Shown here one piece after another: positions 3,088-3,711 of a DNA stretch of 4,122 bases; within the stretch, counting starts at the first letter, position 1, and every line of letters starts with the position of its first letter. Source of the stretch: a virus (taxonomy: Duplodnaviria; Heunggongvirae; Uroviricota; Caudoviricetes); the IMG/VR virus record IMGVR_UViG_2734482004_000012; one strand, given 5' to 3'. The translations under genes were made by a program, and so were the position numbers. The notes beneath the pieces were generated by a model, which saw only the letters and a program-made list of their open reading frames with translations, ran no database searches and was not told the origin of the DNA.

Positions 3088-3159
3088 CGGTTGTCTCTGC
3101 TGGCGCAGCAGGTGCCAGTTGTTCAGGCTGGCGTGCGAATTGTAAACCAGAATGCCAGG

Positions 3160-3186
3160 AAAAAACAAAACCCGCCGAAGCGGGTT
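3160..3186 (-). terminator. Rho-independent terminator ending the hok transcript
   Basis: Minus-strand RNA reads AACCCGC-UUCG-GCGGGUU followed by UUGUUUUUU (plus stem 3169-3175 / 3180-3186, loop 3176-3179, A-rich 3160-3168). UUCG tetraloop, GC-rich stem, U tract. Confidence 0.55.
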
Positions 3187-3189
3187 ACG

Positions 3190-3205
3190 TGCGGGTGCGT
3201 TGAGG
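3190..3205 (-). promoter_or_regulatory. 3' fold-back (fbi-like) element of the hok mRNA, complementary to the 5' leader element at 3568-3582
   Basis: Plus 3190-3205 tgcgggtgcgttgagg is the reverse complement of plus 3568-3582 cctcaagcacccgca apart from one extra g. It lies immediately upstream of the terminator hairpin. Confidence 0.45.
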
Positions 3206-3254
3206 ATGCCTGACACATCAGAGGTGGCGAGGGATTTCTCCCTCGCCGGGTCTC

Positions 3255-3410
3255 TTACTCCTCAGGTTCGTAAACTGTGAAGACAGCGACCTCCGTCTGG
3301 CCGGTTCGGATTCGTACCTCGCAGAGGTCTTTCCTCGTTACCAGTGCCGTCACTATGACGGTTAAACAGATGACGATCAGGGCGATTAACATCGCCTTTT
3401 GCTGCTTCAT
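3255..3410 (-). CDS. hokD: Hok/Gef family type I toxin (51 aa), HokD/RelF-like
   Basis: Product MKQQKAMLIALIVICLTVIVTALVTRKDLCEVRIRTGQTEVAVFTVYEPEE has the single transmembrane helix and the conserved RKDLCEV...TGQTEVAVF core of the Hok/Gef family. It is near-identical to HokD/RelF as I remember it. SD AAGGAG 9 nt upstream of the ATG at 3408-3410. Confidence 0.85.
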   Translation of the reverse strand: MKQQKAMLIALIVICLTVIVTALVTRKDLCEVRIRTGQTEVAVFTVYEPEE

Positions 3411-3467
3411 AGCCTGCTTCTCCTTGCCTTTCGGCACGTAAGAGGCTAACCTAGATTTGCCGTTCAT
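3255..3467 (-). CDS. Mok-like in-frame leader ORF (70 aa) overlapping hok
   Basis: ATG at 3465-3467 with GAGG 8 nt upstream. The N-terminal extension MNGKSRLASYVPKGKEKQA is in frame with Hok. It resembles the MokC extension (...KVKEKRAMKQHKAM...) as I recall it. In hok-family loci, Mok translation is what allows Hok translation. Confidence 0.5.
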   Translation of the reverse strand: MNGKSRLASYVPKGKEKQAMKQQKAMLIALIVICLTVIVTALVTRKDLCEVRIRTGQTEVAVFTVYEPEE

Positions 3468-3567
3468 AGATTGAGCCTCAGATTAATGTTAAGCGTCTTG
3501 CAGGACGCGTAATATTAACTGGGGCTTTTCTCTATCTGCCTTTGGTGTTCATGCCTGAGGCAGATAG

Positions 3568-3582
3568 CCTCAAGCACCCGCA
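3568..3582 (-). promoter_or_regulatory. 5' leader (tac-like) element of the hok mRNA, complementary to 3190-3205
   Basis: See the paired element at 3190-3205. It is followed in the transcript by a 9-bp hairpin (plus 3532-3540 ctatctgcc / 3559-3567 ggcagatag). Confidence 0.45.
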
Positions 3583-3621
3583 GCAATTCTACTTAACTCC
3601 CGTCACCTCGCCAATATAAAA

Positions 3622-3711
3622 TCAATCAGAAAGGCGATCCATAAGAACAACAGCAAGACAATAAATTGCCATTACAGCCGCAATAGCTAGCGCACATTTG
3701 AGAACCAGCAC
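3622..3711 (-). CDS. Candidate small hydrophobic protein (29 aa, MLVLKCALAIAAVMAIYCLAVVLMDRLSD)
   Basis: Canonical SD AGGAGG (plus 3717-3722), 5-nt spacer, GTG start at 3709-3711, stop TGA at 3622-3624. 13 of 30 codons begin with G, a first-position bias typical of real coding frames, and the product is a single predicted transmembrane helix. Below the 60-aa threshold of the supplied ORF track. It conflicts with the alternative 96-aa frame 3626-3916. Confidence 0.3.
   Translation of the reverse strand: MLVLKCALAIAAVMAIYCLAVVLMDRLSD

What the first reader, a model, noticed from the sequence alone, without database searches (positions are those of the whole stretch)
3190..3582. 15/16-nt long-range inverted repeat bracketing mok/hok (candidate fold-back pairing)
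Plus 3568-3582 (cctcaagcacccgca) and plus 3190-3205 (tgcgggtgcgttgagg) are reverse complements apart from a single-nucleotide bulge, about 365 nt apart. In a minus-strand transcript the 5' segment UGCGGGUGCUUGAGG would pair with the 3' segment CCUCAACGCACCCGCA. This is the architecture described for hok mRNAs, where a 3' fbi element pairs with the 5' tac element to keep full-length mRNA translationally inert until 3' processing. An exact match of this length at both ends of one small locus is unlikely to be chance.
Basis: seen in the sequence. Interest (0 to 1): 0.55.

Follow-up and report, generated by a model that had tools for sequence, protein, structure and literature searches.

The report
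hok mRNA tac–fbi fold-back helix
The two matching segments are the 5' and 3' ends of a prophage toxin (hok) messenger RNA that pair to keep the message silent until its 3' end is trimmed, a textbook feature of the hok/sok toxin-antitoxin family, so the finding is real but already known.

Summary
It is far beyond chance; the best of 300 dinucleotide shuffles reached 12 pairs. The window matches a lambdoid prophage of E. coli ATCC 11775. The locus on the minus strand is a complete hokD/hokW-type hok/mok/sok module.

The fold-back (tac-fbi) interpretation is supported:
- In the predicted full-length mRNA all 12 core pairs have probability of at least 0.97.
- RNAalifold recovers the helix on its own from 63 distinct homologous loci.
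- The helix covaries (U-A 31 against C-G 28 at one pair, many G-U pairs).
- In every intact homologue kept for the alignment, the 5' end's best partner lies 41-71 nt after the hok stop codon.
- The two alternative tac pairings of the published model (metastable hairpin, tac-ucb) are also present and conserved.

One refinement. Promoter spacing matches that of R1-type hok loci, and the Rfam model also starts there, so transcription most likely starts at G3579. The outer three pairs (3580-3582 with 3190-3192) are probably not in the RNA and are not conserved. The functional helix is 12 bp plus a bulged C.

Verdict: already known, low interest.

The parts
3609..3614 (-). hok mRNA promoter, -35 box (TTGGCG)
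   Evidence: Consensus scan: TTGGCG, 17-nt spacer, TAGAAT, 9 of 12 matches. Prediction only.
3586..3591 (-). hok mRNA promoter, -10 box (TAGAAT). It is followed by 6 nt and then G3579, the predicted +1.
   Evidence: All 21 homologues inspected show a -10-like hexamer, 6-7 nt, then the GG(G/C) start; the spacing is 6 nt in R1-type loci. There, taking the first G of GGCGCTT as +1 reproduces the published nucleotide numbering (G4/C5/T6, A70/G71/C72, G105/A106 of PMC9841398).
3580..3582 (-). Probably upstream of the transcription start.
   Evidence: These bases lie between the -10 box and the predicted +1. Their pairs with 3190-3192 are kept in only 42-65% of homologues.
3568..3579 (-). tac, the translational activator element: the 5'-terminal GGGUGCUUGAGG of the hok mRNA and the 5' arm of the fold-back helix.
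   Evidence: (pair probabilities 0.97-1.00). Position 1 of the Rfam RF01794 model aligns to 3579.
3551..3561 (-). Partner of tac in the metastable hairpin of the nascent transcript (GCCUCAGGCAU).
   Evidence: The fold of the first 45 nt pairs 3577-3567 with 3561-3551. The helix is 88.7% paired across 63 homologues, against 29-50% when the partner columns are slid.
3532..3567 (-). Stable 5' hairpin, the upper part of the tac stem (GCUAUCUGCC...GGCAGAUAGA).
   Evidence: Present in the full-length, truncated and nascent folds. 93% paired, with compensatory changes at 3 pairs.
3521..3527 (-). ucb, the upstream complementary box (anti-SD), AAGCCCC. It pairs with the mok SD in the full-length fold and with tac in the truncated fold.
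   Evidence: both folds. The tac-ucb helix is 95.7% paired in 63 homologues.
3476..3479 (-). mok Shine-Dalgarno sequence (GAGG).
   Evidence: Lies 8 nt upstream of the mok AUG at 3467. Paired to ucb in the full-length fold.
3442..3447 (-). dcb, the downstream complementary box (AGCCUC). It pairs with the mok SD region in the truncated fold.
   Evidence: Truncated-mRNA fold. Assigned by analogy to the published model (PMC9841398).
3255..3467 (-). mok reading frame (70 codons), overlapping hok in the same frame.
   Evidence: ORF list. The identical 70-aa protein is on record as a Hok-family toxin (P0001). The homologous ORF is annotated mokW in 933W.
3255..3410 (-). hok toxin gene (51 aa; annotated hokD in the reference genome).
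   Evidence: Pfam PF01848 HOK_GEF, 78.6 bits, E = 2.6e-22. RefSeq annotation is hokD.
3459..3529 (+). Sok antisense RNA. Coordinates are transferred from the sokW annotation of phage 933W. Putative promoter: -35 TTGCCT at 3424-3429, -10 TAACCT at 3447-3452.
   Evidence: 933W annotates sokW at the colinear position (ungapped 417-nt match, 93% identity). The promoter was read from the sequence. It was not picked up by the consensus scan, and its -10 box matches the consensus at only 3 of 6 positions.
3226..3247 (-). 3'-UTR hairpin (GGCGAGGGA-GAAA-UCCCUCGCC). This is the expected 3' end-protecting stem of the processed (truncated) mRNA.
   Evidence: Perfect 9-bp inverted repeat (I7). Present in all folds and conserved in the alignment. 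Its role is inferred from R1 (PMC9841398).
3193..3205 (-). fbi, the fold-back inhibitory element: CCUCAA-C-GCACCC, the 3' arm of the helix, with a bulged C at 3199.
   Evidence: It lies 50-62 nt after the hok stop codon, within the 41-71 nt range seen in the intact homologues kept for the alignment.
3190..3192 (-).
   Evidence: Complementary to 3580-3582 in the DNA. The pairing is not conserved.
3160..3186 (-).
   Evidence: Terminator scan and folds. Shared with other chromosomal hokD-type loci but not with 933W, whose homology ends at 3183.

Best explanation
The two arms are the tac (5') and fbi (3') elements of a hok-family toxin mRNA. The mRNA is transcribed from the minus strand of a lambdoid prophage, from about G3579 to the terminator at about 3163, roughly 417 nt.

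Proposed pathway:
1. During transcription, tac is first held in a metastable hairpin with 3561-3551.
2. Once the 3' end is made, tac pairs with fbi (3579-3568 with 3205-3193, 12 bp plus a bulged C).
3. This closes the molecule and leaves ucb (3527-3521) free to sequester the mok Shine-Dalgarno sequence (3479-3476). The full-length mRNA is therefore stable, untranslatable and a poor Sok target.
4. Slow 3'-exonucleolytic trimming back to the hairpin at 3247-3226 removes fbi.
5. tac then switches to ucb and the mok SD is released.
6. The mRNA is then either bound by Sok antisense RNA (+ strand, about 3459-3529) and degraded or, if Sok has decayed, translated (mok, then coupled hok) to give the membrane toxin.

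Shown here: the sequence elements, their predicted pairings, and their conservation and covariation. Inferred from R1 hok/sok and hokW/sokW: the processing, the translational coupling, the Sok action and the toxicity.
For: - Locus identity. HOK_GEF Pfam hit. A mok ORF overlaps hok. Rfam RF01794 scores 113 bits against a gathering score of 59, starting exactly at 3579. The locus is 93% identical to the annotated hokW/mokW/sokW of 933W, and hokW-sokW is an experimentally verified type I TA system (PMC8621323).
- Thermodynamics. In the full-length fold all 12 core pairs have p = 0.967-1.000 and ucb pairs with the mok SD. In the truncated fold (3579..3218) tac pairs with ucb instead. The first 45 nt form the metastable hairpin.
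- Comparative data. 63 distinct homologous mRNAs from Escherichia, Kluyvera, Photorhabdus, Pantoea, Erwinia, Klebsiella, Buttiauxella, plasmids and other sources.
- RNAalifold predicts columns 7-11 paired with 455-459 without any prior.
- One pair shows U-A 31, C-G 28, U-G 3.
- The 5' 13-mer's best partner lies 41-71 nt after the stop codon in every intact locus kept for the alignment, in 41 distinct tac/fbi combinations. Cognate duplexes average -21.1 kcal/mol against -18.5 for non-cognate ones; none of 10,000 permutations reached the cognate mean.
- G-U pairs are frequent (22 sequences each at two positions). Such pairs are tolerated only in RNA of the hok-sense strand.
- The alternative tac pairings are also conserved: 88.7% and 95.7% paired, against 29-60% in the slid controls.
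- In locus L063 a single U-to-C change in tac is matched in fbi, in ucb and in the metastable partner (C-G:1). This is the coupled covariation expected for one segment with three alternative partners.
- The published model is described in PMC9841398 and PMC3851714.
Against: - Nothing here measures RNA. The transcript ends, the 3' processing, Sok expression and toxicity of this particular copy are all inferred.
- The Sok promoter has a weak -10 box (TAACCT) and was not found by the consensus scan.
- Chromosomal hok loci tested earlier did not mediate post-segregational killing, according to the literature summarised in bioRxiv 10.1101/2025.08.07.668861. The biological role of this copy is therefore open.
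- In the MAFFT alignment the distal half of the helix shows only about 50-95% pairing per column. This is because the bulge sits at different places in different clades. The alignment-free analysis resolves it, but that analysis picks the best duplex and so leans towards pairing.
Confidence: 0.93

Rival explanations
1. The 5'-3' helix serves mainly to stabilise the mRNA by protecting both ends from RNases, and perhaps to help 3'-end formation, rather than to control translation. On this view, silencing is achieved by the ucb-SD stem alone.
For: In the full-length fold the mok SD is sequestered by ucb, not by fbi. The helix buries the 5'-terminal nucleotides and sits 6 nt before a terminator. 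In the published model the tac/fbi stem is said to strongly stabilise the closed full-length mRNA (PMC9841398).
Against: This is not really exclusive. tac and ucb are complementary and that pairing is 95.7% conserved. In the truncated fold tac takes ucb away from the SD. Holding tac in the fbi helix is therefore what keeps ucb on the SD. In R1, mutations at G4, C5 and T6 of tac abolish toxicity by blocking the switch (PMC9841398).
Confidence: 0.1
2. The repeat acts at the DNA level, as terminal inverted repeats of a small mobile or recombining hok cassette, or as a protein-binding palindrome, and not as an RNA helix.
For: Homology between this locus and 933W hokW ends at 3183 and 3599, a few bases outside the two arms. 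The arms therefore lie near the edges of the exchangeable cassette.
Against: The pairing tolerates G-U but not A-C (G-U in 22 sequences at each of two positions, U-G at three others). That pattern makes sense only for RNA of the hok-sense strand. The 5' arm starts at the conserved +1, exactly 6 nt after the -10 box. The same 5' segment has two other conserved RNA partners. No transposase or target-site duplication is associated with the locus.
Confidence: 0.02
3. The repeat is a chance inverted repeat with no function.
For: None beyond the general frequency of short inverted repeats.
Against: 15 pairs observed against a maximum of 12 in 300 shuffles. The helix is conserved with compensatory changes across genera and replicon types.
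Confidence: 0.01

Closest known systems
hokW/mokW/sokW of Stx2 phages 933W and Sp5 (E. coli O157:H7)
   Same: 93% DNA identity over window 3183-3599. The tac and fbi core sequences are identical. The gene layout is the same, and both loci sit in a lambdoid prophage. hokW-sokW has been shown experimentally to be a type I TA system whose toxin is produced on prophage induction (PMC8621323).
   Different: The Hok C-termini differ (..FTVYEPEE here..FVDYESEK in HokW). The sequence after fbi also differs: this locus has its own intrinsic terminator at 3186-3169, whereas homology with 933W stops at 3183. The position within the prophage is different too: here the locus lies next to the nin/Q region.
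hok/sok (parB) of plasmid R1, the reference system for tac/fbi
   Same: The set of elements and their order are the same: -10 box, 6 nt, +1, tac, metastable partner, 5' hairpin, ucb, mok SD, dcb, the Sok promoter inside mok, hok, 3' hairpin and fbi. The three alternative tac pairings are also the same.
   Different: Hok is about 40% identical. tac is GGGUGCUUGAGG here and GGCGCUUGAGG in R1, with matching fbi differences (GCACCC against GCGCC). The R1 5' hairpin is about 20 nt longer. In the R1 sequence fbi occupies nt 387-396. From my memory of the literature the R1 full-length mRNA is 398 nt, so it would end right after fbi, whereas here about 30 nt including a terminator hairpin follow fbi. 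R1 is a plasmid post-segregational killing system; this copy is in a chromosomal prophage.
hokD (relF) of E. coli K-12
   Same: The toxin is 98% identical, and the 3' UTR with hairpin, fbi and terminator is the same (H21-H24).
   Different: K-12-type loci match only window 3161-3424. relE sequence replaces tac, mok, the Sok promoter and ucb (L016 and L021). They therefore carry an orphan fbi and cannot form the fold-back helix. The window holds the intact ancestral-type locus.

Membership tests
[quoted passage not shown] | A small hydrophobic Hok/Gef toxin (Pfam PF01848) | tested here: met
   Window 3410..3255 encodes 51 aa. HOK_GEF scores 78.6 bits against a cut-off of 22, E = 2.6e-22.
[quoted passage not shown] | A mok reading frame that starts upstream, overlaps hok and has its own SD | tested here: met
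   A 70-codon ORF at 3467..3255 in frame with hok. GAGG lies 8 nt upstream of its start. The homologous ORF is annotated mokW in 933W.
[quoted passage not shown] | A cis-encoded Sok antisense RNA complementary to the mok translation-initiation region | tested here: inconclusive
   The sokW annotation of 933W transfers colinearly to + strand 3459-3529. The hok-leader/Sok region matches Rfam RF01794. However, the putative promoter (TTGCCT, 17 nt, TAACCT) fell below the consensus-scan threshold, and expression cannot be tested here.
[quoted passage not shown] | Long-range tac-fbi pairing between the 5' terminus and the 3' UTR | tested here: met
   12 bp plus a bulge, p >= 0.97. Predicted by RNAalifold. 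Covarying. Beyond chance.
[quoted passage not shown] | Alternative pairings: ucb with the mok SD in the full-length form, tac with ucb after 3' truncation | tested here: met
   The folds of 3579..3163 and 3579..3218 switch exactly in this way. The tac-ucb helix is 95.7% paired in 63 homologues.
[quoted passage not shown] | A metastable 5' hairpin that sequesters tac in the nascent transcript | tested here: met
   The first 45 nt fold into 3577-3567 paired with 3561-3551. 88.7% paired in homologues, with compensatory changes at 3 pairs.
[quoted passage not shown] | Slow 3' processing of the full-length mRNA to a translatable truncated form | not testable with these tools
   Only the expected stop hairpin (3247-3226) is seen. 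Testing this needs a northern blot or 3' RACE after rifampicin treatment.
[quoted passage not shown] | Toxicity of Hok and its neutralisation by Sok | not testable with these tools
   Shown for the 93%-identical hokW-sokW locus (PMC8621323), not for this copy.

The most novel reading that the evidence does not exclude
In the chromosomal and prophage hokD-type clade the module may have been re-tuned. A dedicated intrinsic terminator adds a tail of about 30 nt beyond fbi, and a conserved bulged pyrimidine interrupts the fold-back helix. Together these could set a different 3'-processing rate from R1, so that Hok activation is timed to prophage induction or loss rather than to plasmid segregation. 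A related possibility is that some transcripts start 2-3 nt upstream and form the longer 15-bp helix, giving two populations with different activation kinetics.
Probability: 0.1. Interest if true: 0.3.

Novelty: already known. Interest (0 to 1): 0.1.

Why it matters
The finding does not change current understanding. The tac-fbi fold-back and the hok mRNA folding pathway have been described since the 1990s and were re-examined recently (PMC9841398). hok loci in prophages are known and common (bioRxiv 10.1101/2025.08.07.668861; PMC8621323). A match to this locus occurs in 4741 of 5426 complete E. coli genomes. The value is for annotation: RefSeq labels only the hokD CDS here, whereas the locus is a complete mok/hok/sok module with every regulatory RNA element intact, unlike the truncated hokD of K-12. 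It also shows that the first-stage reader can recover a true long-range RNA interaction from raw sequence.

Tried and rejected
- RNAduplex between 170-nt upstream and downstream windows gave long, uninformative duplexes. I replaced it with the 5' 16- or 13-mer against the 3' UTR.
A 4-sequence alignment worked.
- Column-wise pair counts on the MAFFT alignment understate pairing in the distal half of the helix, because the bulge or mismatch sits at different positions in different clades. I did not hand-edit the alignment, to avoid fitting it to the structure, and used an alignment-free cognate against non-cognate test instead.
- The sub-threshold Rfam hit to isrK (27.8 bits against a gathering score of 50; 3165-3246) was rejected as a generic resemblance of a hairpin plus a terminator. 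The other weak Rfam hits (ceN48, Fungi_SRP, CsrC, P26) were rejected as chance.
- The Steif & Meyer 2012 paper was not in the held library. I did not attempt Gultyaev et al. 1997 or Pedersen & Gerdes 1999. What I say about these three papers, and about the 398-nt length of the R1 mRNA, rests on my own knowledge.
- Eight loci were left out of the alignment because they are disrupted or have lost tac or fbi: L016 and L021 (relE fusion), L030 (insertion after the 3' hairpin), L068 (frameshifted hok), L009, L043, L057 and L085. They are reported rather than hidden. In each of them the best partner of the 5' segment is weak or displaced.

Full report
**Observation.** On the + strand, 3568-3582 reads cctcaagcacccgca and 3190-3205 reads tgcgggtgcgttgagg. 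They are reverse complements except for one extra base, G3199, which gives 15 Watson-Crick pairs with a 1-nt bulge. The arms are 362 nt apart. The repeat finder returns the same repeat as two ungapped pieces: I6 at 9/9 pairs, and I2, which covers the other six. I scored the best long-range inverted repeat allowing at most one bulge and requiring arms at least 300 nt apart. The real 446-nt region scores 15. In 300 dinucleotide-preserving shuffles the scores ranged from 6 to 12, with a mode of 8.

**Context.** Window 3140-3640 is 100% identical to the chromosome of E. coli ATCC 11775 (NZ_CP033092.2). RefSeq annotates only a hokD CDS there. The neighbouring genes are an antitermination protein, RusA, a DUF968 protein and a DNA methyltransferase, which mark a lambdoid prophage. 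A match to the locus is present in 4741 of 5426 complete E. coli genomes. It is 93% identical to the hokW/mokW/sokW locus annotated in Stx2 phage 933W.

**The locus on the minus strand.**
- A 51-aa Hok toxin at 3410..3255 (Pfam HOK_GEF, 78.6 bits).
- A 70-codon overlapping mok frame starting at 3467.
- An Rfam RF01794 match of 113 bits (gathering score 59) over 3579..3405, on the hok-sense strand.
- A sigma-70-like promoter, TTGGCG, 17 nt, TAGAAT, at 3614-3586.
- A perfect 9-bp 3'-UTR hairpin at 3247-3226.

**Where the RNA starts.**
- All 21 homologues I inspected have a -10-like hexamer, 6-7 nt, and then the GG(G/C) start of the conserved 5' segment.
- In R1-type loci the spacing is 6 nt. Taking the first G of GGCGCTTGAGG as +1 reproduces the nucleotide numbering used in a mutational study of R1 hok: G4/C5/T6, A70/G71/C72, and GAGG starting at 105 (PMC9841398).
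- The window has the same spacing, which puts +1 at G3579. Position 1 of the Rfam model aligns to the same base.
- Across 63 homologues these three pairs are formed in only 42-65% of sequences, against 84% for the 12 core pairs.
- The RNA helix is thus most likely 3579-3568 with 3205-3193: 12 bp with a bulged C at 3199.

**Folding.** All results are.
- *Full-length RNA (3579..3163).* Every core pair is predicted with probability 0.967-1.000. In the same structure AAGCCCC (3527-3521, ucb) pairs with the mok Shine-Dalgarno region (GAGG, 3479-3476).
- *Truncated RNA (3579..3218).* When the RNA is cut just after the 3' hairpin, the 5' end pairs with ucb instead (GGG.GCUU with AAGCCCC), and the SD region pairs with AGCCUC (3447-3442, dcb).
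- *Nascent RNA.* The first 45 nt fold into a hairpin in which the 5' segment pairs with 3561-3551.

These are the three mutually exclusive tac pairings of the published hok model: a metastable hairpin, tac/fbi in the inert full-length mRNA, and tac/ucb in the processed, translatable and Sok-accessible mRNA (PMC9841398; PMC3851714).

**Comparative test.** I collected 79 loci from one-genome-per-species bacterial assemblies, 9 plasmid loci and 933W. I aligned 63 distinct full-length mRNA regions with MAFFT, using no structural information. They come from Escherichia, Kluyvera, Pseudocitrobacter, Citrobacter, Photorhabdus, Pantoea, Erwinia, Kalamiella, Enterobacillus, Klebsiella, Buttiauxella, Dryocola and Siccibacter, plus IncF-type plasmids.
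- RNAalifold on this alignment predicts the 5'-3' helix (columns 7-11 with 455-459) without any prior.
- Counting pairs for the window's helix gives, for the proximal half: four invariant pairs formed in all 63 sequences; the terminal G-C pair in 46 of 63; and one strongly covarying pair with U-A 31, C-G 28, U-G 3 and one broken.
- The distal half scores lower per column, because the bulge or mismatch sits at different places in different clades and MAFFT cannot follow it.
- I therefore also ran an alignment-free test. In every intact locus kept for the alignment, the best partner of the 5'-terminal 13-16 nt within 140 nt downstream of hok lies 41-71 nt after the stop codon. There are 41 distinct tac/fbi combinations.
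- Examples of these combinations are GGGCGCUUGAGA with UCUCAAGCGCCC, GGGUGCCUGAGG with CUCAGGCGCCC, and GGGUGCUUGAAG with CUUCAUAGCACCC.
- Cognate duplexes average -21.1 kcal/mol against -18.5 for non-cognate pairings. None of 10,000 permutations reached the cognate mean.
- G-U pairs are common, in 22 sequences at each of two positions. This fits RNA of the hok-sense strand and argues against a DNA-level repeat or an antisense-strand structure.
- The metastable hairpin is 88.7% paired, and the tac-ucb helix 95.7%. Slid controls give 29-60%.
- In locus L063 a U-to-C change in tac is matched in fbi, in ucb and in the metastable partner (C-G:1). This is the coupled covariation expected when one segment has three alternative partners. 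From my own knowledge, it was first described for this family by Gultyaev, Franch and Gerdes in 1997.

**Mechanism.** The best-supported mechanism is the canonical one. The tac-fbi helix closes the full-length hok mRNA and keeps tac away from ucb, so ucb stays on the mok SD. The mRNA is then stable, untranslated and largely invisible to Sok. 3' trimming back to the hairpin at 3247-3226 removes fbi and triggers the tac-ucb switch. After that the mRNA is either destroyed with Sok or translated to kill the cell. The sequence elements, the predicted pairings and their conservation are shown here. The processing, the coupling of mok and hok translation, Sok expression and toxicity are inferred from R1 (PMC9841398) and from hokW-sokW (PMC8621323).

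**Rivals.** Three alternatives were considered.
- A role mainly in mRNA stability is not really separate from the model. It does not explain the conserved tac-ucb complementarity.
- A DNA-level role as cassette-terminal repeats has one point in its favour: homology with 933W ends just outside both arms, at 3183 and 3599. It is contradicted by the G-U-tolerant covariation and by the fixed position of the 5' arm at +1.
- Chance is excluded.

[quoted passage not shown] All sequence-level defining features that could be tested were met. Sok expression was inconclusive, because its -10 box, TAACCT, is weak and fell below the scan threshold.

It differs from R1 in three ways:
- clade-specific tac and fbi sequences;
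- a shorter 5' hairpin;
- its own terminator about 30 nt beyond fbi.

It differs from K-12 hokD in being intact. K-12-type loci retain only window 3161-3424, so they have fbi but no tac, mok start or Sok (H21-H24).

The tac/fbi mechanism, its conservation in chromosomal and prophage copies, and the enrichment of hok in prophages are all in the literature (PMC9841398; PMC8621323; bioRxiv 10.1101/2025.08.07.668861). The finding is therefore correct, well interpreted and already known. Its practical value is a fuller annotation of a locus that RefSeq labels only as a hokD CDS.

Noticed in passing
window 1109; 2053-2062; 2301: The window differs from the matching reference genome (NZ_CP033092.2) at three places. 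There is a 2-nt deletion (reference AT) after 1109, inside the annotated antitermination-protein CDS, which would frameshift it. A 10-N run stands in for 36 reference bases inside the DUF968 CDS. There is one substitution at 2301 (A in the window, C in the reference). None of these touches the hok locus.
   Followed up: partly
window 3161-3424 (H21-H24); L016 and L021: Some E. coli genomes (four of the 25 sampled hits, K-12-type relBE-hokD) match only the 3' half of the locus: the hok CDS, 3' hairpin, fbi and terminator. relE coding sequence replaces tac, ucb, the mok start and the Sok promoter. These copies therefore carry an orphan fbi and cannot form the fold-back helix.
   Followed up: partly
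L030, about 25 nt after the hok stop (E. coli hokC locus): Directly after the 3'-UTR hairpin the sequence switches to CATAAGCGCTAACTTAAGGGTTG. From memory this looks like an IS186 end. fbi is displaced, and the 5' end's best partner is weak and out of place.
   Followed up: no
L012, L031, L036, L082, L083, L084: hok loci that are nearly identical to the E. coli hokD type, or that encode the same Hok protein as the IncF-plasmid hok (L004/L005), occur in assemblies labelled Veillonella parvula MAG, Acinetobacter idrijaensis, Xanthomonas pisi, Ferruginibacter MAG, Streptomyces morookaense and Oscillibacter MAG, mostly on short contigs. This is most likely contamination or mis-binning rather than real host range.
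   Followed up: no
window 3183 and 3599: Homology with the 933W hokW locus begins and ends a few bases outside fbi and just upstream of the -10 box (H30). The exchangeable hok cassette is therefore bounded almost exactly by its promoter and its fbi element. The terminator at 3186-3169 belongs to the local context and is not shared with 933W.
   Followed up: partly
window 3199, and the equivalent position in homologues: Most clades keep an imperfection in the middle of the tac-fbi helix: a bulged C or U, or a mismatch as in R1. The Photorhabdus, Erwinia and some Pantoea loci have a perfect helix instead. Whether the imperfection tunes helix opening or 3' processing is unknown.
   Followed up: no
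window 3622-3711 (minus strand): A 29-codon ORF encoding a hydrophobic peptide (MLVLKCALAIAAVMAIYCLAVVLMDRLSD) lies just upstream of the hok promoter and has no Pfam match. Some genomes annotate a hypothetical protein under this part of the match (H3-H5).
   Followed up: no
window 3165-3246 (minus strand): A sub-threshold Rfam hit to isrK (27.8 bits against a gathering score of 50) covers the hok 3'-UTR hairpin, fbi and the terminator. I judged it a generic resemblance of a hairpin plus a terminator.
   Followed up: no
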